A stretch of 64,000 nucleotides of DNA from Candidatus Enterousia sp. (lineage in GTDB: Bacteria > Pseudomonadota > Alphaproteobacteria > Rs-D84). The notes beneath the pieces were generated by a model that was not told the origin of the DNA, did no database searches, and was given only the letters and a program-made list of their open reading frames with translations. A program made the translations under genes and the position numbers. The stretch spans positions 120,987 through 184,986 of the forward strand of contig JAZURV010000004.1 in NCBI GenBank assembly GCA_045606425.1. Reading direction: 5' to 3'. The number at the start of each line of letters is the position of its first letter. Position 1 is the first letter of the stretch. Positions 13,496 to 44,814 of this stretch are shown here, in pieces.

Positions 13496-14566
13496 ATGTA
13501 TAGATTCAAACCAAATGTTTTGACTTTATTCCTGATGCGGCGTTTTTTCGTCAGTTTTTTGTTAGTTATGCTGACGACATGTGGAATTATATACGCTGTC
13601 ACATTCGTGGAAAGATTGTCATCTAACCCAGATGCATTGGCAACACTGATGGATGCATGGGTTCGTTTATTGGAATATGTACCTATGTTTTTACCATTGG
13701 CGGTATTTATGGGCACATTGGTTGCTTTTTACAATCTGACCAAATCCAGCGAGATGATTATTATATCTGGCGCGGGTTTATCACCGTTTCAGATTGCGCG
13801 TCCGTTTTTAATTGGGGCATTTTTAACCGGTGTTTTTGCAGCAACAATTGTAAATCCTTATTCGGTCGATTTGACAACACGCAAATTGACGAACCACCAA
13901 TTAAAACTGATTGACGACGCAATATGGTTGCGCGAATCATCAGACAACGGCTATCTGACCGCGCGTGCGACTGGATTAAATATGGCAAAAAACAATAACA
14001 TCATATTTGATGACATAACAATTTTATTACAGGACGACCAGTTTAAATTAAAAGAACGCATATCTGCAAAACACGCCACATTGTCTGAAAACGGTTTTGA
14101 TATCGATAACGCCAGCATTATCGGCGCAGACGGCGTCACACATGGCGATAACGCCCGTCATGTTGATACTAAATTGACCCCTAAAACAGTCCTGGAAAGA
14201 TATTTACAACCAGACCAGATTTCTTTCTGGAAATTACCGGCATTTATACAAAAAATGAATGCGATTGGTGTTTCAACGCGTGGTCATTTGGTTCAGTTTT
14301 GGACCCTGTTGTTTTTGCCATTGACAATGATGGCGATGACCGTTCTGGGGATTGCATTTTCACAAACCAAACAGCGCAGAAATTACAGTTTTGGTATAAA
14401 ATTCAGTCTGGGGATAGTCACATGTTTTGGTTTGTATTTTATTGTCAATGTGTTTAACGCATTGGGAAACACAGGTGCCCTGCCCCCGATTATCGCAATC
14501 GTTGCACCACAAATAATAATTATTGCAGGCGCATGCACTTTCATAACCAGTTTTGACACGATATAA
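13496..14566 (+). CDS. lptF: LPS export permease, LptF/LptG (YjgP/YjgQ) family
   Basis: 356 aa with six TM segments and a central periplasmic domain; YjgP/YjgQ family similarity. Deciding between LptF and LptG needs a search. Confidence 0.7.
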   Translation: MYRFKPNVLTLFLMRRFFVSFLLVMLTTCGIIYAVTFVERLSSNPDALATLMDAWVRLLEYVPMFLPLAVFMGTLVAFYNLTKSSEMIIISGAGLSPFQIARPFLIGAFLTGVFAATIVNPYSVDLTTRKLTNHQLKLIDDAIWLRESSDNGYLTARATGLNMAKNNNIIFDDITILLQDDQFKLKERISAKHATLSENGFDIDNASIIGADGVTHGDNARHVDTKLTPKTVLERYLQPDQISFWKLPAFIQKMNAIGVSTRGHLVQFWTLLFLPLTMMAMTVLGIAFSQTKQRRNYSFGIKFSLGIVTCFGLYFIVNVFNALGNTGALPPIIAIVAPQIIIIAGACTFITSFDTI

Positions 14567-14580
14567 AGGAATCAAAAACT

Positions 14581-14715
14581 ATGCCAATTCACAGACACAG
14601 AAAAAATAACACAAAAAAATATATAATTTTTGCAATAATAATTTTGCTGGTTATTGGCATGTGTTTTTCATTTGCGAACAACCCTGTATTTACTGAAACG
14701 GTTCTTTATCCATGA
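14581..14715 (+). CDS. Candidate small membrane protein (44 aa), below the ORF-track size cutoff
   Basis: ATG at 14581 preceded by aagga; sequence MPIHRHRKNNTKKYIIFAIIILLVIGMCFSFANNPVFTETVLYP with a single TM helix. Its stop TGA overlaps the xerD ATG (ATGA). Confidence 0.3.
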   Translation: MPIHRHRKNNTKKYIIFAIIILLVIGMCFSFANNPVFTETVLYP

Positions 14716-18347: not shown

Positions 18348-18373
18348 AAAACGCCCAAGCGGGCGTTTTTTTT
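18348..18373. terminator. Bidirectional rho-independent terminator
   Basis: aaaacgcccaagcgggcgtttttttt between convergent serS and the 18372..18914 gene. Confidence 0.75.
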
Positions 18374-18914
18374 ATCTTTGGCTTTCCGCAAAATGATATG
18401 CCGGAATCATGGCTTTGAATGGCGCAATCAGGCCATTTGTATTCCATAATTCCACACTGCGATTCATTTTTAATATGGCTTCTGCTTCTAAATCACCCGC
18501 GAAAGTATCATTGCCATAATAAACCCAATCTTTATTGGTATCTTTTTGAACACGGTTCACATGCTTTGCGATTTCTTCACTTAAACGCAGCAATAAAAAT
18601 TTATTACTTGGGTCAAAGTGATGTCCCATTATTGGCAACAAATTATCATATAATCTTGTCCCATCTGGCAAAAGCGTATAAATAAGGTTTCTGCCAGAAT
18701 ACAGATATTTTTTTGGATTATCCGCAATATCCAGCAACAAAACAAACGCTTTTTTCGCGCCTTCATGCAATTCTTCGTCTATTCTGTTATAAGATTTGTT
18801 TAAAAATCTGCATTTTCTAAAAAAACTTTCATCTTTGTCCAAAATAAAACCACAATGCTGGGCATAGCCATGCAATAATTTTTGTATTGTTTTATCTATA
18901 TTTTTAGGCGTCAT
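18372..18914 (-). CDS. Hypothetical protein (180 aa), no recognisable domain
   Basis: Uninterrupted ORF with codon usage like its neighbours, sitting between terminators. Confidence 0.4.
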   Translation of the reverse strand: MTPKNIDKTIQKLLHGYAQHCGFILDKDESFFRKCRFLNKSYNRIDEELHEGAKKAFVLLLDIADNPKKYLYSGRNLIYTLLPDGTRLYDNLLPIMGHHFDPSNKFLLLRLSEEIAKHVNRVQKDTNKDWVYYGNDTFAGDLEAEAILKMNRSVELWNTNGLIAPFKAMIPAYHFAESQR

Positions 18915-19047: not shown

Positions 19048-20892
19048 ATGAAAATAAGAAACATTGCTATTATTGCACACGTTGACCATGGGAAAACAAC
19101 CCTGGTTGATAATATGTTAAAACAAGCCGGAACTTTCCGTGAAAATGAACATGTCGAAGACCGCGTCATGGACAGTGGTGATATCGAACGCGAACGCGGG
19201 ATTACAATTTCTGCAAAACCCACATCTATTCAATGGGGCGAATACAAAATCAACATCGTTGATACGCCTGGACACGCAGACTTTGGCGGCGAAGTGGAAC
19301 GCATTTTATCTATGGTTGACGGGGTTGTGTTATTGGTGGACAGTGCCGAAGGCCCCCTGCCCCAAACTAAATTCGTGTTATCAAAGGCATTGAAATTAAA
19401 CCTGCGCCCGATTGTTTGCATCAACAAAATTGACCGTGGTGACGCACGCCCAGACGAAGTTTTAACAGAAACTTTTGATTTGTTTGATAAACTTGGCGCA
19501 ACAGATTCACAACTTGATTTCCCATATTTGTATGCTTGTGGAAGGGATGGTTGGGCAATCCGTGATTTGAAAGACATCGATAATCCTAACAAAGATTTAA
19601 CACCATTATTCCAACTGATTGTTGACCATGTTCCTGCCCCAGATTGCAACGGAACAAGATGCCAATTGGACGCACCTTTTAAAATGTTGGCAACTACATT
19701 AGAGGCAGACCCGTATGTCGGACGAATCCTGACTGGTAAAATTGAATCAGGCACTGTAAAGGTCGGTCAAAGTGTTAAAGCAATCAACATGGCGGGCGAA
19801 TTTATCGAAAATGCAAAAATCACAAAAATCATCGAACATCAAGGCGTTAACAAGGTTTCGCGCGAATCTGCTTCAGCTGGCGACATTGTCGTTATCGCCG
19901 GATTCACCAAGGCAACCGTGGCGGATACTTTATGCGACCCAAGTGTCAACGAACCAATCCCTGCGATGCCTATTGACCCACCAACCCTGACGATGACATT
20001 CTTTGTAAACACTTCACCATTGGCGGGTAAAAGCGGTAAAAAATTGACATCGCGTATGATTGGCGAAAGATTGTTCCGCGAAGCCGAAACCAACATCGCC
20101 CTGCGCGTCAGCCAAAGCGCAAACAACGAAGCATTCGAAGTTTCTGGTCGTGGCGAATTACAATTGGGTATTTTGATTGAAACAATGCGCCGCGAAGGTT
20201 TTGAATTGAGTGTATCCCGCCCACGCGTTGTTATGCAAACTTCCGAATCTGGCGAAAAATTAGAACCAATCGAAGAAGTTGTTATCGATGTGGACGATGA
20301 ATTCAGTGGTGTTGTTATTGAAAAAATGACTAAACGCAAGGCCACCATTACCGAAATGAAACCATCGGGCGTTGGCAAAACGCGTATCGTGTTTTCTGCA
20401 CCATCGCGTGGTTTGATTGGTTATTTGTCTGAATTCAGAACCGACACCCGTGGCACAGGTATTATGAACCGCGTATTCGATAAATATGATTTATATCGTG
20501 GTCCAATTACTCAATACCGCCCTGGCGTTTTGGTATCTATGGAAGCAGGCAGCACAACAACATACGCCCTGCACAATCTGGAACCACGCGGTGTTTTGTT
20601 TGTTGGCCCACAAACCGAAGTTTATTCCGGCATGATTGTTGGCGAACACAGCAAAGAAAACGATATAGAGGTCAACCCTGTGCGTGGCAAACAATTGACC
20701 AATGTCCGCAGTGTGACCGCAGATGAAAAATTGTTCCTGGCCCCACCACGCAAGATGTCATTGGAAGAAGCGCTGTCTTATATCCAAGATGATGAATTGG
20801 TAGAGGTCACGCCCGCAACAATTCGCCTGCGCAAAAAAGAATTGGACAGCGGTAAACGCAAAAAAGCATATCGCTTTGCCGAAACAGACTAA
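19048..20892 (+). CDS. typA: Translational GTPase TypA/BipA
   Basis: 614 aa with G1-G4 motifs (AHVDHGKTT, DTPGH, NKID) and a BipA-specific C-terminal domain. Confidence 0.93.
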   Translation: MKIRNIAIIAHVDHGKTTLVDNMLKQAGTFRENEHVEDRVMDSGDIERERGITISAKPTSIQWGEYKINIVDTPGHADFGGEVERILSMVDGVVLLVDSAEGPLPQTKFVLSKALKLNLRPIVCINKIDRGDARPDEVLTETFDLFDKLGATDSQLDFPYLYACGRDGWAIRDLKDIDNPNKDLTPLFQLIVDHVPAPDCNGTRCQLDAPFKMLATTLEADPYVGRILTGKIESGTVKVGQSVKAINMAGEFIENAKITKIIEHQGVNKVSRESASAGDIVVIAGFTKATVADTLCDPSVNEPIPAMPIDPPTLTMTFFVNTSPLAGKSGKKLTSRMIGERLFREAETNIALRVSQSANNEAFEVSGRGELQLGILIETMRREGFELSVSRPRVVMQTSESGEKLEPIEEVVIDVDDEFSGVVIEKMTKRKATITEMKPSGVGKTRIVFSAPSRGLIGYLSEFRTDTRGTGIMNRVFDKYDLYRGPITQYRPGVLVSMEAGSTTTYALHNLEPRGVLFVGPQTEVYSGMIVGEHSKENDIEVNPVRGKQLTNVRSVTADEKLFLAPPRKMSLEEALSYIQDDELVEVTPATIRLRKKELDSGKRKKAYRFAETD

Positions 20893-20894
20893 AT

Positions 20895-20923
20895 TAAAAA
20901 CCGCCAAAATGGCGGTTTTTTTA
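20895..20923. terminator. Bidirectional rho-independent terminator
   Basis: aaaaaccgccaaaatggcggttttttt between convergent typA and the first glycosyltransferase gene. Confidence 0.75.
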
Positions 20924-22144
20924 ATATTCGTATTTCAATACTTTCTTTAACCATTGCCGGAAATGATTTCTGCGTATACGCCCAGGCACAAAACACGAAA
21001 TATATTTAATGATATATTTTTTTACTGACTTTGTTGCATATTGTTGCGTATCACATTTAGACAACGCGATTTCGTAATCGGCAAATTCTTTATCCCAACC
21101 CATCAAATCTTTATCTGTATATTTAAAGCCATTTTCGTCAAAGAATTTTTTCATATACTCTGTCAAACCGATAATTTGTGGCGTCAAAGACCAATGGTCT
21201 GTTGGCACAGATTCCATTGACCCGACAATAAATATCGAATCTAATCCCTTTGCCATGTCTATAACATATTGCGTATCTGCATTATCTTGCAGTGGTGTAT
21301 TGCGTTTAATTTGAATAACCGTTCCACCCGGTTTCATAAACAAAGCAAGATGCAACGCGGTCCCCGCGCACCCCGCCAAAACCCGACAATTTTTAACCAG
21401 CGCAATTTGTTCCACCAATGGCAAGGTTTCAGGATAAATTATTTTAAATCCATTTTTTTCGAATATTTTTTGAATTGTCTTTTCACCATAGGTCAATCGG
21501 TCCAACGGCATTTTTGCACGCGACAGGTATATTTTTTCATATATTTCGCCATCATCCACACTGACCGCCATTTTATCATACATATCGCGATAGGCATTTG
21601 TGTAATACGCACTTAAATCAAATCCAGGCGTTGGAATAAAGACATTTTTAAACCGTGTTGTTTTATCTAATAAAATAATATTTTCTTTCTTTACCCCCAG
21701 CAAGCCCAGCAACACATAAATATAGTCATTTATTTTTTTGGATTTGGTTTCGTCGATAATAACCACTTTTGCATTTTTATATTTCTTGTCAATCAAACAC
21801 CAACCGCGATTTATGTGTTCTAATAAAAAATGCCCAAAAGAATTTTTTCCCAAATGGCATAAATAAATAACTTCTTCATCAACATACGGTATATTTTTAT
21901 GGTTAAAGGTTGGAACAAATTGACCCTTGTGCCCCTTGTGATTTTGCATGGACGATTTTACAAATTTGAAATTATCATCAAAAACACCGAAACCGTTTTC
22001 GTGTTCGTTGGCAATAATACCATTTTTGATAACTTCAACCACAGGTTCTGATTCTTTATAATAATGTTTTAATTTTTTTGTTAAATATTTGGTATATTTG
22101 CTATCAGCATATATTTTCATAAACCCACCTTTTTTATGATACAA
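20921..22144 (-). CDS. Glycosyltransferase, GT61/DUF563 family
   Basis: 407 aa; the GHFLLE motif and overall layout resemble DUF563/GT61, a family that is mostly eukaryotic. Confidence 0.6.
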   Translation of the reverse strand: MYHKKGGFMKIYADSKYTKYLTKKLKHYYKESEPVVEVIKNGIIANEHENGFGVFDDNFKFVKSSMQNHKGHKGQFVPTFNHKNIPYVDEEVIYLCHLGKNSFGHFLLEHINRGWCLIDKKYKNAKVVIIDETKSKKINDYIYVLLGLLGVKKENIILLDKTTRFKNVFIPTPGFDLSAYYTNAYRDMYDKMAVSVDDGEIYEKIYLSRAKMPLDRLTYGEKTIQKIFEKNGFKIIYPETLPLVEQIALVKNCRVLAGCAGTALHLALFMKPGGTVIQIKRNTPLQDNADTQYVIDMAKGLDSIFIVGSMESVPTDHWSLTPQIIGLTEYMKKFFDENGFKYTDKDLMGWDKEFADYEIALSKCDTQQYATKSVKKYIIKYISCFVPGRIRRNHFRQWLKKVLKYEY

Positions 22145-22202
22145 ATCATATTATAAATTTGTTATAATGTAAATAATATAAATAAAAAAGGACTATACAA
22201 AA

Positions 22203-23075
22203 ATGAAAACACCATTGATATCAGTTGTAATCCCAATGTATAACGCAGAAAAATTTATTCGAAAACCATTGGAACATTTGATTCATCAAACATATAAAAA
22301 CCTGGAAATCATCATTGTGGACGATGGCAGCACCGATAACTGTGCCGACATTGTTAAACAATATGCAAAACACGACAAACGCATTAAATTGATTCAGCAA
22401 AAAAATGCAGGCGTATCGGTCGCATCTAACACTGGGATAAAGGCAGCAACCGGGGAATATATTCATATTCACGACCACGATGATTTTGTGAATTTGGAAT
22501 ATTTTGAAAAAATGGCAAATGCTGCAATTTTGACCAATGCCGATGTTTTATGTGGCGAAGTAAACCAGCCAGAATATAATTTCCCAAAATTTGATTCAAT
22601 TGAAATTTGTGTATCGTTGGCCGACAAAATAGAAAAAACACGCGCAAACAGATTTAACCCTGCATGGCGCTATGTTTATAAAACAGCCTTTATCCGTAAA
22701 TCAAAATTATTGTTTGAACCATCTGTTTTAGGTGCCCAGGATATATTGTTTTCAAAACCCGCGATTATTTTAGCAGATACTGTCGCGACGGTTCCAGGTG
22801 CAATTTACAATGTTGTAAACACACCAACCGCATTGGGCAAAAACAAAAAGAAATTAAAACAAAGTATCAGCGAAGAAACCAAACGCGCATGGAAAAAATA
22901 CGATGAATTTATAACGGAGCACCATGCCAAAGAATTACTGGAATCACCAGAAAGACCATTTGCCCAGGAAAAATTCAAAATATTCAACAAAACTGTTTTC
23001 CGTCGCGATATATATACCCGTAAAATAAAATCTTATTTATTCGGTATAAATATCGGAACAAAACATATAATTTAA
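22203..23075 (+). CDS. Glycosyltransferase family 2
   Basis: N-terminal GT-A signature VVIPMYNAEKFI ... DDGSTD ... HDHDD (DxD). Confidence 0.8.
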   Translation: MKTPLISVVIPMYNAEKFIRKPLEHLIHQTYKNLEIIIVDDGSTDNCADIVKQYAKHDKRIKLIQQKNAGVSVASNTGIKAATGEYIHIHDHDDFVNLEYFEKMANAAILTNADVLCGEVNQPEYNFPKFDSIEICVSLADKIEKTRANRFNPAWRYVYKTAFIRKSKLLFEPSVLGAQDILFSKPAIILADTVATVPGAIYNVVNTPTALGKNKKKLKQSISEETKRAWKKYDEFITEHHAKELLESPERPFAQEKFKIFNKTVFRRDIYTRKIKSYLFGINIGTKHII

Positions 23076-24025
23076 TCTCGTTTTAATTTTTCAATGAATT
23101 TATCCATAACCGTATCATAAACTTCATTACGGTTGTGGATATTGAATCGGTTTAATGCTTTTGCTTTTGGTGAATCGGCCATATTTTCATAACAGGCATC
23201 ACCTTTATTACAACGCGTCATAAATTCATCAAATGATTTTGTCACATAATGATTACATCTTATTATATCGCAAGACGGCGGATTATTTGTTTGATCTATA
23301 AATCCCAATCTTTTTCCATTTTCATCGATGGTAAAGCCTGCGACTTCGCTGGTGTGTGGATTATTCATATCCAGTATCATTCGCGGATTAAATATAGATT
23401 TTACCCCCCATGTTTTATCCGCATGCATTTTGAAACGTTCGATAACCAAACCTGGCTTTTTTTCTTTTTGATTTGACGAACCATAAATCATCCAACCAAC
23501 AACCAAAGCACTAAACTGTGGCAAAGTCTTTAAATAATCCACTAAATTATCATATTTCAATGAAAATACAAATTCATCTAAATCTATAAAAGCCATCCAA
23601 CGCGTTTTATCAGAATATTTATTTACCGCATCTTTATATGCCACCATTTGCTGTGCAAGACCTGGCCAATAAATATGTTCAACAATACCTTTTTTTACAT
23701 AAGGTTTCAACACAGCCGCCGTATCATCAGTTGATTCATTATCATAAAGGTAAAATTTTTGCACCCCATTCAAAATATGAAAATCAAGCCATTCTTTTAA
23801 ATAAGGTCCTTCATTTTTCATAATCGCAACGACAGATAATTCATTTTCAAATTTTTTAATTTTATCTGTACGAACTGTGTCTTTATACCGTTTGACCCCA
23901 ATCAGCAAGATTCCACGCAGGGCCTTTCTGTATTTTTTTACCGGAATCCAAAAAGTACACAAAGTCGCTAAAAATTTCCGTTGTTTTGATATTTTTGGTA
24001 AAGCCATTTTTATTCCCTGTTGCAT
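23072..24025 (-). CDS. Glycosyltransferase family 92 (Glyco_transf_92/DUF23-like)
   Basis: LSVVAIMKNEGPYLKEWLDFHILNGVQKFYLYDNESTDDT matches the GT92 N-terminal signature. Confidence 0.6.
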   Translation of the reverse strand: MQQGIKMALPKISKQRKFLATLCTFWIPVKKYRKALRGILLIGVKRYKDTVRTDKIKKFENELSVVAIMKNEGPYLKEWLDFHILNGVQKFYLYDNESTDDTAAVLKPYVKKGIVEHIYWPGLAQQMVAYKDAVNKYSDKTRWMAFIDLDEFVFSLKYDNLVDYLKTLPQFSALVVGWMIYGSSNQKEKKPGLVIERFKMHADKTWGVKSIFNPRMILDMNNPHTSEVAGFTIDENGKRLGFIDQTNNPPSCDIIRCNHYVTKSFDEFMTRCNKGDACYENMADSPKAKALNRFNIHNRNEVYDTVMDKFIEKLKRD

Positions 24026-24100
24026 TTAATAATATTATAGAGCCTAAACCCTTGAAAAGCAAATATAAACAATGTATAGTTATATCAAAGTGATAGCATT

Positions 24101-24937
24101 ATGCCGGATCGATTATTTTTATTTGCAGGTTTCGACAAAGATTGCATTATTGACGATGCGCTGATTTATTATGTAAAAACACTTTCCAAATATGGCGATA
24201 TTATTGTGTGTATGGATTCCAATTGCCCAAAATCTGAAATCGACAAAATCAAAAGATATACTCTGCATACCATAGCCACGCGACATGGCGAATATGATTT
24301 TGGTTCATACAAACGCGCCTATCAGTATGCCCGCGACAAAAAAATACTAAAAAATTATGATTATTTATATCTGGTCAACGATTCAGTATTTGGTCCCACA
24401 ATAAATATGAAAAATATTTTGAAAAGCATTGAATCGAAAAATGATGATGCGGTTGGTATGGTTATATCAAAACACAAAACACATTCTTTTATGGAATCTT
24501 GGTTCGTAAGATTGAACAGGAAAATTTTCTTGTCATATTGGTTTGATGAATTTATGTCGTCTGTATGCGCCGAACCTGACAAATCTGCAATCACTATAAA
24601 ATACGAACACGGACTGACTAATTTAATACAAAAACACAATTGCACATGGGGCGGAATATTTACTGTACATGGTCGCGGAACATACAACAAACCAAAAAAA
24701 TTATTTCAATCTGGCATGCCATTTATTAAAAAAATGTCATTCACACGACACAACGGGGCATTGGGAAATCAAATTAAATACATATTGAACAATTGCAACA
24801 GTGCGGCAAAAAACGCTATATTAAAATCGGCACACAGATTATATGGCGCGGAATATATGGAACAATTTTTAACTTCAAATGCTATAAAGATATTTATGCG
24901 AAACATAACCTATATAACCCGAAAAATATGGAAATAA
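24101..24937 (+). CDS. Putative polysaccharide biosynthesis glycosyltransferase, rhamnan-synthesis-F (RgpF)-like
   Basis: 278 aa; FAGFDKDCIIDDALIYYVKTL and RHGEYDFGSYKRAY resemble Rhamnan_synth_F proteins; recalled from memory, not verified. Confidence 0.4.
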   Translation: MPDRLFLFAGFDKDCIIDDALIYYVKTLSKYGDIIVCMDSNCPKSEIDKIKRYTLHTIATRHGEYDFGSYKRAYQYARDKKILKNYDYLYLVNDSVFGPTINMKNILKSIESKNDDAVGMVISKHKTHSFMESWFVRLNRKIFLSYWFDEFMSSVCAEPDKSAITIKYEHGLTNLIQKHNCTWGGIFTVHGRGTYNKPKKLFQSGMPFIKKMSFTRHNGALGNQIKYILNNCNSAAKNAILKSAHRLYGAEYMEQFLTSNAIKIFMRNITYITRKIWK

Positions 24938-24941
24938 AGAA

Positions 24942-25781
24942 ATGGTAAAAAAATTAAAAAAAATCGCAGCAATAACGATGGCACGCAACGACGAATTTTT
25001 CTTGTCCCGTTGGATTGCGTATTATGGAAAACAATTCGGAACTGAAAATTTATACATTATATTGGATGGCACGGACCAAATTGTTCCAGAAAACGCAGGC
25101 AACGCACACATAACAAAATTACCACACACAAACATGTCGCGCGCGGCGGGTGATAAATATCGCATAAATCAGATTTCACAAATGGCACAAAAACTGTTGC
25201 AAAACTATGATATAGTCCTGGGCTGTGACAGCGATGAATTTTTAATTGTTGACCCACGCACAAATCAAAACCTGCACCAATATTTATCCAATCGAAAAAT
25301 CCACACCAGCCTTTCTGGACTTGGACTGGATGTTGGTCAACACCTGTATTGCGAAGCGATATTGGACCCCGACGCGCCGTTCCTGGAACAACGCGAATAC
25401 GCCCTGCTTTCCACGCGTTATACGAAACCGGTTGTTATAAACAAACCGGTACAATGGGGCAGCGGTTTTCACAGCGTAAAGAACCATAATTTTCACATAG
25501 ATAAAAATTTATACCTTTTGCATTTTGGTTCGGTTGATATGGACATGTTGGAACAAAAGGCTAAAAACCGTGGCGCAGATTGGGTAAACCACCTGAAACG
25601 GCGCGGGAACGGAACCATCAACGCCGTCACAAAATCAAAACCAAAATCCGAAAAATGGTTGCGCATAGCACGCACTATTCAAACATATTGTCGTCCGATT
25701 TATGCCCTGCGTAAACCGGCGATGTTTGGATTAAAAATTGTTGTAAAAATACCCGCACGGTTTAAGAAATCTGGGATATAA
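24942..25781 (+). CDS. Putative GT-A fold glycosyltransferase (GT92/GT2-like)
   Basis: IAAITMARNDEFFLSRWIAYYGKQFGTENLYIILDGTDQ has GT-A/GT92-like N-terminal layout. Confidence 0.45.
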   Translation: MVKKLKKIAAITMARNDEFFLSRWIAYYGKQFGTENLYIILDGTDQIVPENAGNAHITKLPHTNMSRAAGDKYRINQISQMAQKLLQNYDIVLGCDSDEFLIVDPRTNQNLHQYLSNRKIHTSLSGLGLDVGQHLYCEAILDPDAPFLEQREYALLSTRYTKPVVINKPVQWGSGFHSVKNHNFHIDKNLYLLHFGSVDMDMLEQKAKNRGADWVNHLKRRGNGTINAVTKSKPKSEKWLRIARTIQTYCRPIYALRKPAMFGLKIVVKIPARFKKSGI

Positions 25782-26739
25782 GTTTTTCAATTCTGCGTCT
25801 ATACCGCCATGCGTGAAAATCAGGCACATTGTCAAACACGCCCAATTTTTTCAAATCCAATAATCCAGATTTAATTTTGCGTAATTCGTCTTTATCGTCT
25901 ATTTGTTTAGCATAAACATAAACCCGTGACAAAATATCCCACATAAAACGCGATTTCCATCTGCGCCTATTCAACCAAGACATATTTGTCGACACCATAT
26001 ATTGGTAAGACAACCCAACAGCGGCGATTAAATTTTTAACAGATTTAATATAATCCGCCGTATGCAAAATAGACCCAGGATTCGCCGTATAACTATACAA
26101 AGGCAATTTTATTATACAAACAGTCGGGGTTTTAAACAAAACACGCGACCAAAAAACAAAATCTTCCAGCACACAAATATTTTCAGGACATTTTATATTT
26201 TTGATTAAATCTGTTTTATATAAATTACGCCAAACCACACACTGTTGAACATACCAAGAATCCATACCTTTGTCCCGGTTAGTAGCCCAATATAACAAAT
26301 GATTGGTAGTTTTTGTTTTAATATTTTTTACATCATATCTTTTATCAAACCAACCTGGGATATCAGCCGATGCATCACCACGCAAATACCGGAAAGAAAC
26401 AATATCAGTATTTTTTTCTTTTGCCAAATTATACACTATTTCAAAAGCCTGTGGATGGATACAATCATCACTGTCTAAAAACATAACATACGGTGTTTTA
26501 ACTTTTTTCATTGCTTCATTACGTGCCGCAGACAAACCACCGTTTTCTTTGTGAATAACGACAAATCTTTTGTCTTTTTTTGCGTATTCGTCCAAAATTT
26601 TTCCACAATTATCCGAACTGCCGTCATCAACACAAATTGCTGTCCAATCATGAAATGTCTGATTTAACAAACAATCCAAACATCTGTGCAGATATTTTTC
26701 AACATTATAAACCGGTATAATTACAGATATTTCAGCCAT
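25762..26739 (-). CDS. Glycosyltransferase family 2
   Basis: ISVIIPVYNVEKYL...DDGSSDNCGKILDEYAKKDKRFVVIHKENGGLSAARNEAMK...DSDD. Confidence 0.85.
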   Translation of the reverse strand: MAEISVIIPVYNVEKYLHRCLDCLLNQTFHDWTAICVDDGSSDNCGKILDEYAKKDKRFVVIHKENGGLSAARNEAMKKVKTPYVMFLDSDDCIHPQAFEIVYNLAKEKNTDIVSFRYLRGDASADIPGWFDKRYDVKNIKTKTTNHLLYWATNRDKGMDSWYVQQCVVWRNLYKTDLIKNIKCPENICVLEDFVFWSRVLFKTPTVCIIKLPLYSYTANPGSILHTADYIKSVKNLIAAVGLSYQYMVSTNMSWLNRRRWKSRFMWDILSRVYVYAKQIDDKDELRKIKSGLLDLKKLGVFDNVPDFHAWRYRRRIEKLISQIS

Positions 26740-27762
26740 TTAGTTTTCTTCCCCAATAAATTCATAAATTTTTTCCCGCAAATCATACCATTCGTTTGGC
26801 ACATCATCGAACACGCCAATTTTGTTCATTTCAGAAAATTCAGCACGCGCCACATCGAATTCAGCATCAGATTTCAAATACTTTAATTTTCTAAACGCCC
26901 AATTCACAAACAACCACATAAATTGTTCCTGCCATTTTTTCATTTGGTCATTATCTGCCTTTTCTTTATACAATTGAAAAGATGTTTTTATCCCGATGCA
27001 TAAACTTTGCATAATTTTTAACTGTTTTGCAGACAACACAATCCCACCAAAATTCGGGATATAAAAATACAGTGGCAACGGCACAACGGTCACACGCGGT
27101 TTCTTTAACATAATCGCAGACCACCACGGAAAATCTTCGAACAAAATACCCTTGATAAACGGTGTATCTGCAATCAAAGATTTTTTATAAAGGTTTTTCC
27201 AAACCTGACAATGTTTAATCAGCCATTTACGATTTGGATTCAATTTATTATGCGTGCGTTCTGTGGCAAATTCGAAAACATCATCTGTTGTCCGCATTGG
27301 AATTTTATTCAAATCATATTTTTTCTTGATACCGAACGGAACGACATTATCAGTGTCCAAACGCAGAACATGTCGCACCATCAGTTGCGGCCGATAAAAC
27401 CGGTCATAGGTAAAAGACACTATATCAGATTTATTTTTAACCAATGCATTATACGCAATTTCCATAGTCTGGGGATGAATAAAATCATCACTGTCCAGGA
27501 ACATTATATATTCCCCAGTCGCATATTTCATACCGAAATTACGCGCATCAGACAAACCACCGTTTTCTTTGTGCACAACAACAAACCGTTTATCGCGGGC
27601 GGCATAAGATTCTGCGATGCTACCCGATTTATCTGGGCTGCCATCATCAACACAAATCGCCTGCCAATCTTGAAAAGTCTGATTTAATACACTGTCCAAA
27701 CAACGGGGCAGATATTTTTCCACACCCCACATTGGAATAATTATGGATATTTTTGGTTTCAT
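26740..27762 (-). CDS. Glycosyltransferase family 2 (tandem paralog of 25762..26739)
   Basis: ISIIIPMWGVEKYL...DDGSPDKSGSIAESYAARDKRFVVVHKENGGLSDARNFGMK...DSDD; the two tandem copies share much of their N-terminal GT2 region by eye. Confidence 0.85.
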   Translation of the reverse strand: MKPKISIIIPMWGVEKYLPRCLDSVLNQTFQDWQAICVDDGSPDKSGSIAESYAARDKRFVVVHKENGGLSDARNFGMKYATGEYIMFLDSDDFIHPQTMEIAYNALVKNKSDIVSFTYDRFYRPQLMVRHVLRLDTDNVVPFGIKKKYDLNKIPMRTTDDVFEFATERTHNKLNPNRKWLIKHCQVWKNLYKKSLIADTPFIKGILFEDFPWWSAIMLKKPRVTVVPLPLYFYIPNFGGIVLSAKQLKIMQSLCIGIKTSFQLYKEKADNDQMKKWQEQFMWLFVNWAFRKLKYLKSDAEFDVARAEFSEMNKIGVFDDVPNEWYDLREKIYEFIGEEN

Positions 27763-27773
27763 AAATTATACCT

Positions 27774-28661
27774 TTACATCTTTGAAATTGCCTCTGCAAA
27801 GGTGCCTGGTAACGGCGCATCTGCATAGGCGCATTTTTGAAAGAATGAATCTTTGGTTAATTTCTTGAACAGTTTTGCATCATATGGTTTATGTTTATAT
27901 TCATGCCACAATGCGTGTGTTGGGTCTTGGTCAATATGTGGCATTTCTGCAAAGTATTTTATTGCCCGCGGATCATTTTCAACCAAAGTTCTGAATAACA
28001 ATTGGTGCATAAAATAATCAAAACTGTGATTTTCGTGCATCCAATAATCCAAAATCATCGCACGCCACGCCGCCAATAAATACGCCCCCTTGCGCGCACG
28101 GATAAAGCAATTTTGCATATAAGAATATTTTTGCCCGACATTACCAACCATAAAAACAAAGAAATCCAAATCGATAATCCAATCTGGAATTGGTTCTGTC
28201 ACAAATGCAGTAGAATCCAACCAAATCCCCCCATGTTCATAAAGCAATTCAACACGGACAATATCTGCAAAATGTGCGCGTCTGATTTTCCCAGCACGAT
28301 ATTTTTCAACAATTTCGCGTGGCAAATTTACATATTGTTCGAAATTATTATCGTCCAGAACAACCAATTCTTGCTTGCAGTGTTTACGCACGCTGCGAAA
28401 GCACGCCTTTACCAAATCAGGGGCTTTTTCTTCGCCCTGTTGCCACATTGTCCAAATTTTTTCATTTTCATCATCTTTGACAATCGGCATTTCTTTGACC
28501 GCGGCGGCGGCTGGCAAATATCGCTTGAAATAACGCACTGCGATTTTTGCGAACACATCACATCGCACGGCACTGCGCACCGCGCGCGGACGCCACACCC
28601 AATTTAAAATATGTGCCCGAACCACAATCTGTGTCAATGCCCATGCGCGCGATATATTCAT
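27774..28661 (-). CDS. Glycosyltransferase with DXD sugar-binding region (GT32/Caps_synth-like)
   Basis: HFADIVRVELLYEHGGIWLDSTAFV matches the Gly_transf_sug (GT32, Och1-like) motif. Confidence 0.6.
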   Translation of the reverse strand: MNISRAWALTQIVVRAHILNWVWRPRAVRSAVRCDVFAKIAVRYFKRYLPAAAAVKEMPIVKDDENEKIWTMWQQGEEKAPDLVKACFRSVRKHCKQELVVLDDNNFEQYVNLPREIVEKYRAGKIRRAHFADIVRVELLYEHGGIWLDSTAFVTEPIPDWIIDLDFFVFMVGNVGQKYSYMQNCFIRARKGAYLLAAWRAMILDYWMHENHSFDYFMHQLLFRTLVENDPRAIKYFAEMPHIDQDPTHALWHEYKHKPYDAKLFKKLTKDSFFQKCAYADAPLPGTFAEAISKM

Positions 28662-28681
28662 ATTAAACCCCTTTGGTTTTA

Positions 28682-29755
28682 TTATTCTGCATCAACGCCT
28701 TCGTCTTCATCGTCCATTGGACCAGTTGTCATTTCTTCGGCGATACCGTTTGCGCGTGCCATAATTTTATCCAGCAATTCTTTCTGGGCATCTTCATGGT
28801 CTTTCAACCAAGCACGTGCATTGGCTTCGCCCTGACCTATTCTTTCATTATTATAAGAATAGAACGAACCAGCCTTTTCAATCAGGTTATATTTCACACC
28901 CATATCCAAAATTTCACTTATTCTGGAAATACCTTCGCCATACATAATCTTGAAATCGACAGTACGGAACGGTGGCGCAACTTTATTTTTTACAACCTTG
29001 ACTCTGGTTTCATTACCGATAACATTTTCTTTATCTTTGATTGCACCTGTACGGCGGATATCCAGGCGTACCGACGCATAGAACTTTAACGCATTACCAC
29101 CCGATGTTGTTTCAGGTGACCCGAACATAACACCGATTTTCATACGAATCTGGTTGATGAAAATCAGCAAAGTATTACTGCGCGACACACTGCCCGCCAA
29201 CTTTTTCAAAGATTGTGACATCAAACGCGCAGTTGTTCCCATATATGTGTCACCAATGTTTCCTTCCAATTCAGCCTTTGGCACCAATGCCGCCACAGAA
29301 TCGACGACCACAACATCAACCGCACCTGATTTGATAAGAGTATCAGCAATTTCCAGTGCCTGTTCACCAGAATCAGGTTGTGATATAATCAGATTAGAAA
29401 CATCGACGCCCAATTTTTTAGCATACGATGGGTCCAGTGCATTTTCTGCATCGATATATGCGCAAGTGCCACCCTTCTTTTGTGATTCAGCAACCGCATG
29501 TAATGCCAATGTTGTTTTACCAGAAGATTCTGGACCATAAATTTCAACAATACGACCCTTTGGATAACCGCCAATTCCCAACGCGATATCAAGCCCAAGC
29601 GACCCAGTTGAAATCGCCTCTATATTTTGTTGGGAACCATCACTCATTTTCATGATGGCTTCTTTGCCAAATTGTTTTTGGATTTGCGCCAACGCCGATT
29701 CCAGTGCTGGATTTTTGGCAGGCGCGTTTTCTTTAACTACTTCTTTTTTTGCCAT
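28682..29755 (-). CDS. recA: Recombinase RecA
   Basis: 357 aa, Walker [11 protein letters not shown], RecA signature [14 protein letters not shown]. Confidence 0.95.
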
Positions 29756-29817: not shown

Positions 29818-31032
29818 TTATTTACGGCCCGACCACAAAATTATTGTGGACAAAACACCCATAATTGCGGTGATTATCCAGACCGCAGATGTTGTTCCAA
29901 ACAATGTAATTGCCAAAGTTCCCATAATTGGAATCAACACACTGGGGAAATTTACAGATGTTCTGAACACCCCATAATATTTTGCCTGTTCGCGTCGTGG
30001 TATATCGTTAAAGAACAACAAATCATGCGACGATTCCATAAACGCACCAGATATCTGCCACAGAACAAACACAGCCAACAACGCATATCCAGACAACATC
30101 ATCGCCATAACAGACAATCCTGCAAACGATAAAAATCCGATTGTCATCCAAATTCTGACACCATATTTTTGTATCAGTTTACCAATGAACAAATTCATTA
30201 CTATATACGGAATAATTCCAATCGACAAAACTATACCCAATGTTTCGTTTGAAAAACCATTTTCAATAACAACGATTGGCACATACAGTAATCGCATCGC
30301 ACGAAGTGCGAAAAATCCAAAATTCACCATATACGCCCGCAACATACCCGGCATTTTAAAGAAAGATTTTGCAGTTATACGCAACGCACGAATTGTTCTG
30401 TGCAAATTCACAGGCTTTATAATTTTGTCTTCCTGGACAATACCAAAATGTTTAAAGAACAACAAACCAAAGAAATAAATCATGCCCGCCGCCAAAAATG
30501 GCATTCTGTAATTTCCACCAAAATACCCAACAACCCACATCGCGAACATTGGTGCAACAAACGCCCCTACATTTTCCCACAACAACCGACGCGCATTTAC
30601 ACGCGCCATACCAATACCGCGCGAAAATTCAGACATAAACAACGGCAACAAAATTCCAAACATAGTCGATGCAAAACAAACCACATAATCCAGCATAATA
30701 AATGTCGATGGTTTAACAGAAAAACTCATCATCGAATAGCACGCACCCATCGCCGCCATGGATATATATAACAACCTGGTTTTTGTGAACCAATGTAAAA
30801 TTTGCGCAGAAAAAATTCCAACAACCACAGCAAATGTCGCGTATAACGCAGCATACACACCAACCGCAGCGGATGCCATTTCTTCATTAAAAAATTCTTT
30901 AAATATTCCCAACAAAACCAGGGAATACACAGCATGCACGACACCCGAACCAAACCCAGTAAACAACCCCAGATTTGCAAACGAATATCCAGTGACATTA
31001 TTATTTATAGAAAGATATTTTTCTTTTCTCAC
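29818..31032 (-). CDS. MFS transporter
   Basis: 404 aa with about 12 predicted TM helices. Confidence 0.65.
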   Translation of the reverse strand: MRKEKYLSINNNVTGYSFANLGLFTGFGSGVVHAVYSLVLLGIFKEFFNEEMASAAVGVYAALYATFAVVVGIFSAQILHWFTKTRLLYISMAAMGACYSMMSFSVKPSTFIMLDYVVCFASTMFGILLPLFMSEFSRGIGMARVNARRLLWENVGAFVAPMFAMWVVGYFGGNYRMPFLAAGMIYFFGLLFFKHFGIVQEDKIIKPVNLHRTIRALRITAKSFFKMPGMLRAYMVNFGFFALRAMRLLYVPIVVIENGFSNETLGIVLSIGIIPYIVMNLFIGKLIQKYGVRIWMTIGFLSFAGLSVMAMMLSGYALLAVFVLWQISGAFMESSHDLLFFNDIPRREQAKYYGVFRTSVNFPSVLIPIMGTLAITLFGTTSAVWIITAIMGVLSTIILWSGRK

Positions 31033-37571: not shown

Positions 37572-37600
37572 AAAAACGCCCAAACGGGCGTTTCTTTATT
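37571..37600. terminator. Bidirectional rho-independent terminator
   Basis: aaaaaacgcccaaacgggcgtttctttatt between paralog B and the convergent fadD-like gene 1. Confidence 0.7.
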
Positions 37601-39176: not shown

Positions 39177-39330
39177 TTTAATATCCTTTTTGTTTACTTT
39201 TTCGCTCGACACACAATAAAAAAAATCAAAAAAATCTTGTGAACTTCAATTTTTTAAGCTTTTTTTAATTGTGTGTTCTCGTATTCGCTCGCTTGGCACA
39301 ATTTGTGCCGGCTGCGCGGATAACGCAACG

Positions 39331-39362
39331 ATTGCGGAAGCAGTATTCACTGCTTCCGCAAT
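39331..39362. repeat. Perfect 13-bp-stem palindrome between fadD-like copies 2 and 1
   Basis: attgcggaagcag-tattca-ctgcttccgcaat lies 7 nt after the fadD-like-2 stop. There is no downstream U-run on the minus strand. Nearby palindromes are ggcacaatttgtgcc (39293-39308) and acacacaatt/aattgtgtgt (39199-39208 / 39268-39277). Confidence 0.5.
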
Positions 39363-39368
39363 CTGCTT

Positions 39369-44802: not shown

Positions 44803-44814
44803 CCTTGTCCCCCG

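What the first reader, a model, noticed from the sequence alone, without database searches (positions are those of the whole stretch)
20921..28661. Island of eight glycosyltransferase genes, including eukaryote-type GT61/DUF563, GT92 and GT32-like families, inserted between typA and recA
Eight consecutive ORFs in mixed orientations all look like glycosyltransferases: GT61/DUF563, GT2, GT92, RgpF-like, GT-A/GT92-like, two tandem GT2 paralogs, and a GT32-like protein. No sugar-nucleotide synthesis, flippase, polymerase or chain-length genes are in the window.

The island sits between housekeeping genes, is delimited on the typA side by a bidirectional terminator, and looks more AT-rich by eye. 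GT61 and GT92 are mostly eukaryotic families. I infer acquisition of a machinery that builds an unusual oligosaccharide.
Basis: partly seen in the sequence, partly recalled or inferred. Interest (0 to 1): 0.65.

Follow-up and report, generated by a model that had tools for sequence, protein, structure and literature searches.

The report
Ancestral variable surface-sugar gene locus
The eight sugar-transferase genes are real, but they are not a foreign insert: nearly every related species of this tiny-genome gut bacterium (Candidatus Enterousia) fills the same typA-recA gap with such genes, four kept and the rest swapped, as is usual for loci that vary a cell-surface sugar coat.

Summary
Observation confirmed. 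Eight back-to-back ORFs (20921-28661) all match glycosyltransferase (GT) families above Pfam cut-offs: GT61, GT2, GT92, RgpF-like, Glyco_tranf_2_4, two GT2 paralogs (40% identical) and Caps_synth/GT32-like. They lie between typA and recA and are AT-richer than the rest of the window.

The reading as an acquired, eukaryote-type island is not supported. The window comes from a rumen Candidatus Enterousia (Alphaproteobacteria, order Rs-D84, genomes under 1 Mb). In 63 of 63 related species that hold both typA and recA, the interval is full of GT genes.

- Four genes form a fixed core: O4, O5, O7 and O8.
- Two slots vary, giving 40 architectures among 64 intervals.
- Codon usage is host-like, and low GC is shared by 62 of 63 relatives.
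- There are no mobility marks at the borders.
- O1 and O3 have their nearest homologues in the same clade.
- A sister lineage carries the same eight genes at flank-like divergence, except O6, which was replaced.

Best reading: an ancestral, diversifying surface-glycan locus of soluble GTs. It probably builds an oligosaccharide on a lipid acceptor, most likely LPS core (LOS-like), because no initiating, flippase, polymerase or exporter gene occurs in any version and an LptG-like gene is nearby. The acceptor is inferred, not shown.

New member of a known kind; modest interest.

The parts
19048..20892 (+). typA/bipA translational GTPase; conserved left flank of the locus
   Evidence: TIGR01394 904 bits. 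90-99% identical in 80 related species.
20896..20920 (.). Bidirectional intrinsic-terminator-like hairpin between the convergent typA and O1
   Evidence: 11-bp stem with T-runs on both strands. A hairpin follows typA in 58/64 loci whichever gene comes next.
20921..22120 (-). O1, GT61 glycosyltransferase (variable cassette, slot VR1). Its C-terminal tail carries the motif ..CFVPGRIRRNHFRQWLKK..
   Evidence: PF04577 59.7 bits. AF2 model pLDDT 90.7, and the top 16 PDB matches are all POMGNT2. Family F5 is present in 30/64 intervals. 399-aa homologues fix the ATG start.
22203..23075 (+). O2, GT2 glycosyltransferase (variable cassette, VR1)
   Evidence: PF00535 124 bits. Family F9 is present in only 7/64 intervals. 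98% aa identity in sister lineage L082.
23072..24025 (-). O3, GT92 glycosyltransferase (variable cassette, VR1). Its N-terminal tail carries the motif ..CTFWIPVKKYRKALR..
   Evidence: PF01697 82 bits. Family F8 is present in 11/64 intervals, on the opposite strand in the other 10. Nearest homologues that carry a source name are 'GT92 protein [Alphaproteobacteria]' MAG proteins.
24101..24937 (+). O4, RgpF-like (N-terminal part only) putative glycosyltransferase; conserved core
   Evidence: PF05045 45.7 bits, model positions 1-201 of 503. Present in 59/64 intervals, always directly upstream of O5. Its identity tracks the flanks, rho 0.79.
24942..25781 (+). O5, Glyco_tranf_2_4 GT-A-type glycosyltransferase; the most conserved core gene
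   Evidence: PF13704 46.4 bits. Present in 64/64 intervals with 75% mean column identity. Identity tracks the flanks, rho 0.76. Related domains are fused elsewhere to GT4, GT61 and methyltransferases.
25762..26739 (-). O6, GT2 glycosyltransferase, paralog of O7 (variable cassette, slot VR2)
   Evidence: PF00535 129.6 bits. 40% identical to O7. It is the only island gene replaced relative to L082 (70% aa against 88-99% for the others).
26740..27762 (-). O7, GT2 glycosyltransferase; conserved core
   Evidence: PF00535 130.7 bits. A family F1 gene lies next to O8 in 64/64 intervals. Weak tracking of the flanks, rho 0.39.
27774..28661 (-). O8, Caps_synth / GT32-like glycosyltransferase; conserved core. 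It starts 20 nt downstream of the recA stop codon
   Evidence: PF05704 216 bits and PF04488 29.6 bits. Present in 64/64 intervals in 1-3 copies. Its identity does not follow the flanks, rho -0.09.
28682..29755 (-). recA; conserved right flank. It is on the same strand as O8-O7-O6 and tightly spaced with them
   Evidence: TIGR02012 533 bits. Gaps are recA-O8 20 nt, O8-O7 11 nt and O7-O6 0 nt. No terminator-like site was found in the recA-O8 gap.
13496..14566 (+). LptG-like LPS-export permease (context: suggests the cell exports LPS)
   Evidence: PF03739 164 bits, above cut-off. Best NCBIfam match is LptG at 189.6 bits, below its 240-bit cut-off. Six hydrophobic segments.

Best explanation
This is the resident, vertically inherited surface-glycan locus of Candidatus Enterousia, not an insert.

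**Architecture (shown).** Two convergent gene strings hang on two housekeeping genes: typA followed by O4 and O5 on one strand, and recA followed by O8 and O7 on the other. These four genes are the fixed core. Two slots take interchangeable cassettes:
- VR1, between typA and O4: in this window GT61, GT2 and GT92.
- VR2, between O5 and O7: in this window the GT2 paralog O6.

**How it works (inferred).** All eight enzymes lack transmembrane segments, so they would work on the cytoplasmic face of the inner membrane. They would add sugars one at a time from nucleotide-sugars to a lipid-linked acceptor. The core enzymes would build an invariant part and the cassettes would add lineage-specific outer residues.

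**Acceptor (inferred).** No version of the locus encodes an initiating phosphoglycosyltransferase, flippase, polymerase, chain-length regulator, ligase or ABC exporter, and an LptG-like permease is encoded 5 kb away. The most likely acceptor is therefore lipid A-core. That would make the product a lipooligosaccharide-like outer core, flipped by MsbA and exported by Lpt.

**Why it varies (inferred).** Cassette turnover and allele shuffling diversify the exposed glycan, presumably under pressure from phages, the host or partner cells.

The architecture, conservation, families and mode of variation are shown. The acceptor, the export route and the selective agent are inferred.
For: **Families.**

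**Organism.**. Genomes of 0.75-1.0 Mb and a dependent lifestyle are reported in PMC12306168.

**Conservation.**
- 63/63 loci holding typA and recA have a GT-filled interval of 4.0-8.8 kb.
- 11 further contigs break off inside the GT genes that follow typA.
- Families F3, F1 and F2 occur in 64/64 intervals and F4 in 59/64, always in the same order and on the same strands.

**Variation.**
- There are 40 architectures among 64 intervals: 21 VR1 variants and 12 VR2 variants.
- The cassette pool is GT61, GT4, Stealth, GT92, GT2, GT8, GT6, HtrL_YibB-like, Glf, an acetyltransferase and APH-like kinases. It contains no transport or initiation genes.

**Vertical inheritance of the core.**
- O4 and O5 identity tracks flank identity (rho 0.79 and 0.76), whereas O7 and O8 do not (0.39 and -0.09).
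- Sister lineage L082 has the identical 8-gene order. Its island genes are 87-96% nt identical against 84-94% for the flanks, except O6 at 71%.

**Composition.** Codon usage is host-like.

**Enzyme properties.** No transmembrane helices in the eight proteins.

**Diderm context.** LptG-like and LolCDE genes are in the window.

**Transcription.** Tight spacing downstream of recA.
Against: - No lipid A, Kdo-transferase or heptosyltransferase (GT9) gene was seen in the 64-kb window or in any interval, so the link to LPS core rests on the LptG-like gene and on absences.
- The LptG match is below NCBIfam's cut-off.
- Several families in the pool (Caps_synth, Stealth, RgpF) are best known from capsules and ABC-transporter-dependent polymers. 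O5-like domains are fused elsewhere to chain-terminating-type methyltransferases. Both points fit a polymer pathway as well.
- There are no phase-variable repeats of the kind seen in classical LOS loci.
- PMC12306168 reports that lipid biosynthesis is lacking in these genomes.
- Two relatives break the pattern: L076 has no GT genes after typA, and L074 is rearranged after O5.
Confidence: 0.55

Rival explanations
1. The locus supplies the serotype-specific transferases of a capsule or O-polysaccharide. Initiation, export (ABC transporter or Wzx/Wzy) and ligation genes would lie elsewhere in the genome.
For: - The pool includes Caps_synth, RgpF-like and Stealth families.
- JGI names O1 homologues 'capsular polysaccharide biosynthesis protein'.
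- O5-like domains are fused elsewhere to FkbM- or TylF-type methyltransferases and to GT4, as in polymer pathways.
- A PAP2 undecaprenyl-diphosphatase-like gene is in the window.
Against: - None of 64 versions of the locus carries any transporter, initiator, polymerase or chain-length gene, and neither do the window's other ORFs of 150 aa or more (hydrophobicity scan of the unassigned ORFs).
- The enzymes are single-domain GTs with no transmembrane segment and of ordinary size, not typical processive synthases.
- Genomes under 1 Mb leave little room for a dispersed pathway (PMC12306168).
Confidence: 0.3
2. The transferases glycosylate proteins, for example the secreted repeat proteins encoded in the window, rather than a lipid-linked glycan.
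For: - The only solved structural relative of O1 is POMGNT2, which extends a protein O-mannosyl glycan.
- Several secreted proteins and lipoproteins, including Listeria-Bacteroides-repeat proteins, are encoded nearby.
Against: - No oligosaccharyltransferase (PglB/PglL/PilO-type) and no serine-rich target gene occurs in any interval.
- Flagella are absent from this lineage (PMC12306168).
- The GT8, GT6, HtrL_YibB-like and Glf cassettes are typical of LPS and LOS loci. This last point rests on my own knowledge of those families.
Confidence: 0.08
3. One reading: the eight genes are a horizontally acquired island, possibly of eukaryote-like origin, inserted between typA and recA.
For: - GC is lower than in the flanks.
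- The exact VR1 combination GT61-GT2-GT92 is unique among the 64 intervals.
- Individual cassettes are patchily distributed.
Against: - The locus is present in 63/63 relatives.
- Codon usage is host-like.
- There are no mobility signatures at the borders.
- A sister lineage carries the same eight genes at flank-like divergence.
- The nearest homologues of O1 and O3 belong to the same clade.
Confidence: 0.03

Closest known systems
Campylobacter jejuni lipooligosaccharide (LOS) biosynthesis locus (classes A-W; PMC7248181)
   Same: - It sits at a fixed chromosomal position.
- Some genes are common to all classes, and a variable block of mostly single-domain glycosyltransferases lies between them.
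- Many gene-content classes arise by insertion, deletion and recombination of genes.
- The variable block has no flippase or polymerase.
   Different: - Here the flanks are typA and recA, not LOS inner-core genes: no waaC/waaF heptosyltransferases are present.
- There are two variable slots rather than one.
- There are no sialic-acid genes.
- No homopolymeric phase-variation tracts are present.
- Variation was seen between species, not yet between strains.
- The acceptor is unproven.
Xanthomonas LPS cassette between conserved housekeeping genes (bioRxiv 10.1101/2022.03.02.482478, listed; only title and abstract seen)
   Same: It is a hypervariable LPS-related locus studied as a site of selection on a surface molecule. 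From my own knowledge, that cassette lies between housekeeping genes and has atypical GC.
   Different: From my own knowledge, Xanthomonas cassettes include ABC transporter (wzm/wzt) and other O-antigen genes and are exchanged as whole cassettes. Here only transferases and modifying enzymes are present, and a 4-gene core stays fixed.
Neisseria/Haemophilus lgt-type LOS glycosyltransferase clusters (own knowledge)
   Same: These are small clusters of soluble, peripherally membrane-bound GTs that extend LOS directly on lipid A-core, and GT8 members occur among them. Cationic amphipathic C-terminal tails anchor enzymes such as LgtC. The tails of O1 and O3 look similar.
   Different: Those clusters vary mainly by phase-variable repeats and gene fusion or deletion. 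GT61 and GT92 members are not typical of them.
Eukaryotic GT61 enzymes (POMGNT2, EOGT, plant xylosyltransferases)
   Same: O1 shares the Pfam GT61 domain and the POMGNT2 fold.
   Different: O1 is only 10-14% identical to POMGNT2. It has no signal anchor or fibronectin-like domain and is a soluble bacterial enzyme of 399 aa. It belongs to a bacterial subfamily with hundreds of members in gut metagenomes.

Membership tests
CAZy GT61 / Pfam PF04577 (O1) | Significant match to the GT61 domain model | tested here: met
   PF04577 59.7 bits against a 27-bit cut-off, covering the full model 1-137.
CAZy GT61 / Pfam PF04577 (O1) | Fold shared with a solved GT61 enzyme | tested here: met
   The AF2 model has pLDDT 90.7. 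The top 16 Foldseek PDB hits are all POMGNT2 (E 6e-10 to 1e-8, TMq about 0.5); the next hit has E 0.015.
CAZy GT61 / Pfam PF04577 (O1) | Inverting transfer from a UDP-sugar | not testable with these tools
   Needs an enzyme assay.
GT92 / Pfam PF01697 (O3) | Significant match to the GT92 model, plus a DxD motif | tested here: met
   PF01697 82 bits against a 23-bit cut-off. A DLD motif lies in '...FIDLDEFV...' (sequence). Source names of homologues read 'glycosyltransferase family 92 protein'.
RgpF rhamnan synthesis protein F / PF05045 (O4) | Match to the whole RgpF architecture | tested here: inconclusive
   The score of 45.7 bits passes the 25-bit cut-off, but only model positions 1-201 of 503 are covered and the protein is 278 aa. 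There is no PDB relative by sequence or by profile.
GT2 / PF00535 (O2, O6, O7) | Significant match to the GT2 domain with the N-terminal DxD-bearing Rossmann half | tested here: met
   124-131 bits. No equivalog-level NCBIfam match, since every hit is far below its cut-off, so the specific activity is unknown.
Caps_synth PF05704 / GT32-like (O8) | Match to Caps_synth and to the GT32 sugar-binding DXD region | tested here: met
   PF05704 216 bits and PF04488 29.6 bits against a 23-bit cut-off.
Horizontally acquired genomic island | Absent from close relatives at the same site | tested here: not met
   63/63 relatives have a GT cluster in the typA-recA interval. L082 has the same eight genes.
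Horizontally acquired genomic island | Foreign composition or codon usage | tested here: not met
   GC is lower, but mainly at codon position 2 (p = 2e-4). GC3 does not differ significantly (p = 0.086). RSCU r = 0.949 lies within the range of random 8-gene sets. The same GC dip is seen in 62/63 relatives.
Horizontally acquired genomic island | Mobility marks at the borders (tRNA, direct repeats, integrase, IS) | tested here: not met
   The only tRNAs are at 50.6-50.9 kb. No flanking repeats were found. The only tyrosine recombinase (14712-15575) is Xer-like and is conserved in the relatives checked.
LOS-type (lipid A-core-built) variable glycan locus | Fixed position with conserved genes and a variable block of GT-only content; no Wzx, Wzy, Wzz or ABC genes | tested here: met
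LOS-type (lipid A-core-built) variable glycan locus | Core-building enzymes (Kdo transferase, GT9 heptosyltransferases) in or beside the locus | tested here: not met
   None occurs in any interval or in the 64-kb window.
LOS-type (lipid A-core-built) variable glycan locus | The organism makes and exports LPS | tested here: inconclusive
   An LptF/LptG-family permease is present (PF03739, 164 bits). Its best NCBIfam match is LptG, but at 189.6 bits it is below the 240-bit cut-off.
LOS-type (lipid A-core-built) variable glycan locus | Phase-variable simple repeats in the GT genes | tested here: not met
   The only homopolymer of 8 or more in the island is A8 at 24956. There are no SSR arrays.
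O-antigen / capsule gene cluster | Initiating phosphoglycosyltransferase, export or polymerisation genes, and NDP-sugar synthesis genes in the cluster | tested here: not met
   Absent from all 64 intervals. The only precursor gene is a single glf, in L033.

The most novel reading that the evidence does not exclude
In a gut bacterium with a genome under 1 Mb that depends on other cells for most metabolites, this one locus may be the main generator of surface-glycan diversity. It would work as a plug-in system. A fixed four-enzyme core would be extended by interchangeable cassettes from unrelated enzyme families (GT61, GT6, GT92, APH-like kinases). These cassettes share a short cationic terminal peptide (hydrophobic stretch, then [IV]-P-x-[KR]-x-x-R...), which would dock them to the same membrane site or assembly complex. 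The resulting glycan would set partner, host or phage specificity.
Probability: 0.2. Interest if true: 0.55.

Novelty: new member of a known kind. Interest (0 to 1): 0.3.

Why it matters
Candidatus Enterousia (order Rs-D84) is an uncultured, widespread gut lineage with genomes under 1 Mb and a presumed partner-dependent lifestyle (PMC12306168). It keeps 4-9 glycosyltransferase genes at one site. In this window that is eight genes, or 7.7 kb, roughly 1% of such a genome. The gene content at the site also changes from species to species. Both facts mark the exposed glycan as a trait under strong selection.

The locus gives a ready marker for typing these organisms in metagenomes, because the typA and recA anchors are conserved. 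It is also a concrete candidate for what mediates their contact with phages, host mucosa or partner cells.

For genome scanning, the case is a caution. Low GC and 'eukaryotic' GT families inside a housekeeping neighbourhood do not by themselves indicate horizontal acquisition.

Tried and rejected
**Searches that found nothing or could not run**
- Exact-sequence contig look-ups for O1 (407 aa and 399 aa) and for P0121 found nothing in the contig index, although the cluster table shows the source is a 195,661-bp NCBI contig.
- Sequence searches of the PDB with O1, O3, O4, O5 and O8 and with family profiles of O4, O5 and O8 gave no meaningful relatives.
- The O5 model built from close homologues was too poor to search with (pLDDT 52).
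- The AFDB fold library was not available, so the taxonomic spread of O1's structural neighbours could not be listed.
- The 2023 Enterousia paper (doi 10.1134/S0026261723603780) is not held.
The presence of lpx, waaA, msbA, waaL, wzx or ABC genes is therefore untested.

**Ideas tested and rejected**
- Phase variation: no homopolymer or SSR tracts.
- Mobile-element borders: no tRNA, repeats or IS.
- An RNA element in the region: the only Rfam hits in the window are two tRNAs elsewhere.
- O4 and O5 as two halves of one RgpF-like protein: O5 has no RgpF hit, and its fusions elsewhere are to GT4, GT61 and methyltransferases, not to RgpF-like domains.
- O5 as a GT92 relative of O3: no detectable similarity.
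- Unknown window ORFs as hidden Wzy/WaaL-type proteins: each has at most one N-terminal hydrophobic segment.

Full report
**1. What is in the sequence**

The interval 20921-28661 holds eight ORFs with almost no spacing and in mixed orientation. Every one hits a glycosyltransferase Pfam family above the curated cut-off:

| ORF | Family | Bits | Note |
|---|---|---|---|
| O1 | GT61 | 59.7 | |
| O2 | GT2 | 124 | |
| O3 | GT92 | 82 | also matches Glyco_tranf_2_4 |
| O4 | RgpF | 45.7 | only positions 1-201 of the 503-position model |
| O5 | Glyco_tranf_2_4 | 46.4 | |
| O6 | GT2 | about 130 | 40% identical to O7 |
| O7 | GT2 | about 130 | |
| O8 | Caps_synth | 216 | also matches the GT32-type Gly_transf_sug region |

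- NCBIfam gives no equivalog-level name for any of them, so donor and acceptor specificities are unknown.
- The flanks are typA (19048-20892, +) and recA (28682-29755, -).
- The 28-nt gap between the convergent typA and O1 holds a hairpin with T-runs on both strands (20896-20920).
- GC falls to 0.33-0.35 in most of the interval, against about 0.40 for the window.
- None of the eight proteins has a hydrophobic stretch of transmembrane strength.
- O1 most likely starts at ATG 22120, which gives 399 aa like its homologues.

**2. The rest of the window**

All other ORFs of 150 aa or more are housekeeping or envelope genes. They include FtsK, SecDF, MutL, GreA, an LptF/LptG-family permease (13496-14566; best NCBIfam match LptG), a Xer-type recombinase, SerRS, an MFS transporter next to recA, RuvC, DciA, MltA, RuvA, MnmE, three tandem AMP-binding enzymes, LolCDE, FtsQ/FtsA and UvrB.

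There is no sugar-nucleotide, flippase, polymerase, chain-length, ligase or polysaccharide-ABC gene. The scanned ORFs without a Pfam hit have at most one N-terminal hydrophobic segment.

**3. Organism**

TypA finds 80 species-representative genomes at 90-99% identity. All are rumen or gut MAGs labelled Alphaproteobacteria or Candidatus Enterousia.

According to PMC12306168, Enterousia (order Rs-D84) has genomes of 0.75-1.0 Mb. It lacks biosynthesis of amino acids, nucleotides and lipids, has incomplete glycolysis and no flagella, and is thought to depend on other cells.

**4.

*Conservation.*
- In all 63 loci that hold both genes, the interval (4.0-8.8 kb, median 6.2 kb) is filled with GT genes.
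- Eleven more contigs break off inside GT genes that start right after typA.
- Clustering the 415 interval ORFs gives 29 families. O5-type, O7-type and O8-type genes are in 64/64 intervals (window included) and O4-type in 59/64.
- The order is always typA+, [VR1], O4+, O5+, [VR2], O7-, O8-, recA-.

*Variation.*
- The other genes vary: GT61 is in 30 intervals, a GT4 in 28, Stealth proteins in 13, GT92 in 11 and O2-type GT2 in 7.
- The rest of the pool is HtrL_YibB-like, GT8, GT6, Glf, a hexapeptide acetyltransferase, APH/choline-kinase-like proteins and DUF6492.
- There are 40 different architectures among the 64 intervals: 21 variants of VR1 (empty in 18) and 12 of VR2.
- No interval contains a transporter, initiating transferase, polymerase or ligase.

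*Exceptions.*
- L076 has DnaA and DprA after typA.
- L074 is rearranged after O4-O5-Stealth.
- L041 and L042 have a variant longer than 10 kb, with GT8, kinase-like, DUF1796 and porin genes.

**5. Ancestral or acquired?**

- *GC.* The GC dip is seen in 62/63 relatives, with a mean of -4.4 points.
- *Codon usage.* In the window the deficit is strongest at codon position 2 (0.322 against 0.376, p = 2e-4). That reflects proteins rich in Lys, Trp, His, Cys and Tyr. GC3 is not significantly different (p = 0.086). RSCU correlates 0.949 with the other 41 genes, inside the range of random 8-gene sets (5th percentile 0.929). The two most conserved genes, O5 and O8, have the genome's median GC.
- *Mobility marks.* No tRNA, flanking repeat or IS marks the borders. 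A hairpin follows typA in 58/64 loci whichever gene comes next.
- *Core genes.* The identity of O4 and O5 to the window rises and falls with that of the flanking SerRS and MFS genes (rho 0.79 and 0.76), as expected for vertical descent. O7 tracks weakly (0.39) and O8 not at all (-0.09), with a few alleles at 79-94% and the rest at 52-69%. That pattern suggests allele exchange.
- *Sister lineage.* L082 is an independent ENA assembly, collinear with the window over 20.8 kb at 88.7% nt identity. It has exactly the same eight genes. They are 87-96% nt identical, like the flanks (84-94%), except O6 at 71% nt and 70% aa, which is a single-cassette replacement.
- *Another relative.* L081, whose GT61 is 88% identical to O1, has GT61-GT92-GT8-GT6 in VR1.
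- *Nearest homologues.* For O1 and O3 they are hundreds of same-length metagenome proteins (47-89% identical). Where a source name exists, it reads Alphaproteobacteria or Proteobacteria MAG.

The locus as a whole is therefore ancestral to the genus. Only cassettes move.

**6. 'Eukaryote-type' families**

O1 is a true GT61. Its AlphaFold model is confident (pLDDT 90.7), and among solved structures it matches only human POMGNT2 (E 6e-10 to 1e-8; the next hit has E 0.015). That reflects which GT61 enzymes have been crystallised, not the origin of the gene. The subfamily is abundant in gut metagenomes and is labelled 'capsular polysaccharide biosynthesis protein' by JGI.

O5's family is large: 1635 cluster representatives at E up to 1e-3. 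In other organisms it is fused to GT4, GT61, FkbM- or TylF-type methyltransferases and TPR domains. It is thus a general polysaccharide-building GT-A domain that works alongside the same partner families seen here.

**7. How it most likely works**

*Shown:*
- a fixed site;
- a fixed four-gene core;
- two cassette slots;
- soluble single-domain transferases only;
- tight spacing of O8-O7-O6 behind recA (20, 11 and 0 nt) with no terminator-like site in the recA-O8 gap;
- O4-O5 separated by 4 nt, directly following typA in the 18 intervals where VR1 is empty.

*Inferred:* the enzymes act in sequence at the cytoplasmic membrane face, on a lipid-bound acceptor and with common nucleotide-sugars. The core enzymes make a constant part and the cassettes make lineage-specific ends.

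No version of the locus supplies initiation, flipping, polymerisation or export. The cell has an LptG-like permease and LolCDE. I therefore favour direct extension of lipid A-core, a lipooligosaccharide-like product flipped by MsbA and exported by Lpt. I put about 0.45-0.5 on that acceptor and about 0.9 on the 'ancestral diversifying glycan locus' part.

The main rival is a capsule or O-polysaccharide pathway whose initiation and export genes lie elsewhere (0.3). Caps_synth, Stealth and RgpF-like families and the methyltransferase fusions of O5 relatives fit that reading. Protein glycosylation is a minor rival (0.08). The acquired-island reading is essentially excluded (0.03).

**8. Comparison with known systems**

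The closest analogue is the Campylobacter jejuni LOS locus. It has genes common to all classes, a variable block of transferases between them, and 23 gene-content classes arising by gene insertion, deletion and recombination (PMC7248181).

The differences here are:
- housekeeping anchors (typA, recA) in place of inner-core genes;
- two variable slots rather than one;
- no heptosyltransferases;
- no phase-variable tracts;
- variation documented between species only.

A Xanthomonas study describes a hypervariable LPS locus (title and abstract only). From my own knowledge, such cassettes include transporters. I therefore file this as a new member of a known kind (a hypervariable surface-glycan locus) and not as a proven member of the LOS class. 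Two defining features were not met or were inconclusive: core-building enzymes at the locus, and proof that the organism makes LPS.

**9. A side observation**

O1 ends, and O3 begins, with the same short motif: a hydrophobic stretch, then [IV]-P-x-[KR]-x-x-R and further basic residues.
- O1 carries ..YISCFVPGRIRRNHFRQWLKK..
- O3 carries ..LCTFWIPVKKYRKALRG..

Across the fetched loci a loose pattern for this motif hits the termini of 44/406 interval ORFs but only 3/854 flank ORFs. It sits at the C-terminus of GT61 (24/30) and GT6 (4/5), and at the N-terminus of GT92 (8/11) and the APH-like proteins. It appears almost only in cassette genes: none in core families O4, O5 and O8, and 5 of the 94 members of GT2 family F1, which holds both core O7-type and cassette O6-type genes.

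In the O1 model the segment after the proline is a helix with net charge +6. Its hydrophobic moment is at the 95th percentile of the protein. The simplest reading is an interfacial membrane anchor, as known for peripheral LOS transferases (own knowledge). A docking role is possible but untested.

**10. Verdict**

- Observation: confirmed.
- Family calls: essentially right.
- 'Inserted, acquired, eukaryote-type island': not supported.

This is the resident, diversifying glycan locus of a reduced-genome gut alphaproteobacterium. It is of modest interest (0.3), and mainly as a handle on the surface biology and typing of an uncultured lineage.

Noticed in passing
window 20921-21020 (C-terminus of O1) and 23900-24025 (N-terminus of O3); also L-loci families F5, F8, F12, F25, F26, F27: Unrelated cassette enzymes (GT61, GT6, GT92, APH-like) share a short terminal motif: a hydrophobic stretch, then [IV]-P-x-[KR]-x-x-R and further basic residues. 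A loose pattern hits 44/406 interval ORFs against 3/854 flank ORFs. It is absent from core families O4, O5 and O8, and hits 5 of the 94 members of GT2 family F1 (O7- and O6-type genes). In the O1 model it forms a cationic amphipathic helix.
   Followed up: partly
window 57782-59566 (+): A single 594-aa ORF combines an FtsA/actin-like N-terminal part with a complete ribulose-phosphate 3-epimerase domain (residues 398-578, E 3e-42). It is either an unusual gene fusion or a lost stop codon.
   Followed up: no
window 37596-42547 (-): Three tandem paralogous AMP-binding (acyl-CoA/acyl-ACP synthetase-like) genes of 526-538 aa. They could serve fatty-acid scavenging in a lineage reported to lack lipid biosynthesis (PMC12306168).
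   Followed up: no
window 18372-18914 (-): A 180-aa ORF just upstream of typA has no Pfam or NCBIfam hit and low GC (0.346). It is only 31-49% identical in species whose TypA is 98% identical, yet 97% identical in L082. It is a fast-evolving small protein of unknown role.
   Followed up: partly
window 9545-10966 (-) and 44092-44838 (-): Two secreted proteins carry Listeria-Bacteroides repeat (Flg_new) domains. The 9.5-11 kb stretch has no blastn match in any of the 80 related loci. This looks like a variable surface protein.
   Followed up: no
window 28661-28682 and 26739-27774: recA, O8, O7 and O6 lie on one strand with gaps of 20, 11 and 0 nt, and no terminator-like site was found in the recA-O8 gap. 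The recA-O8 gap is under 105 nt in 58 of 64 loci. The transferases may be co-transcribed with recA.
   Followed up: partly
window 29818-31032 (-): A 10-TM MFS transporter of unknown substrate sits directly beyond recA in nearly all relatives, at 50-82% identity. No link to the glycan locus was established.
   Followed up: no
L041:11913-21834 and L042:12133-13624: A divergent variant of the locus longer than 10 kb follows typA. It holds GT8, APH-like kinases, three DUF1796 (papain-like) genes and an Opacity-family outer-membrane beta-barrel.
   Followed up: partly
window 23072-24025 (-) compared with L014, L017, L026, L029, L034, L035, L046, L049, L060, L062: The GT92 cassette is on the minus strand in the window and in L082, but on the plus strand in all ten other species that carry it. 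This indicates an inversion or an independent insertion.
   Followed up: no
P0377, P0408, P0409, P0436, P0449, P0481, P0496: In other organisms, domains like O5 are fused to GT4, GT61, and FkbM-, Methyltransf_24- or TylF-type methyltransferases. This is a Rosetta-stone link between O5-type and O1-type enzymes.
   Followed up: partly
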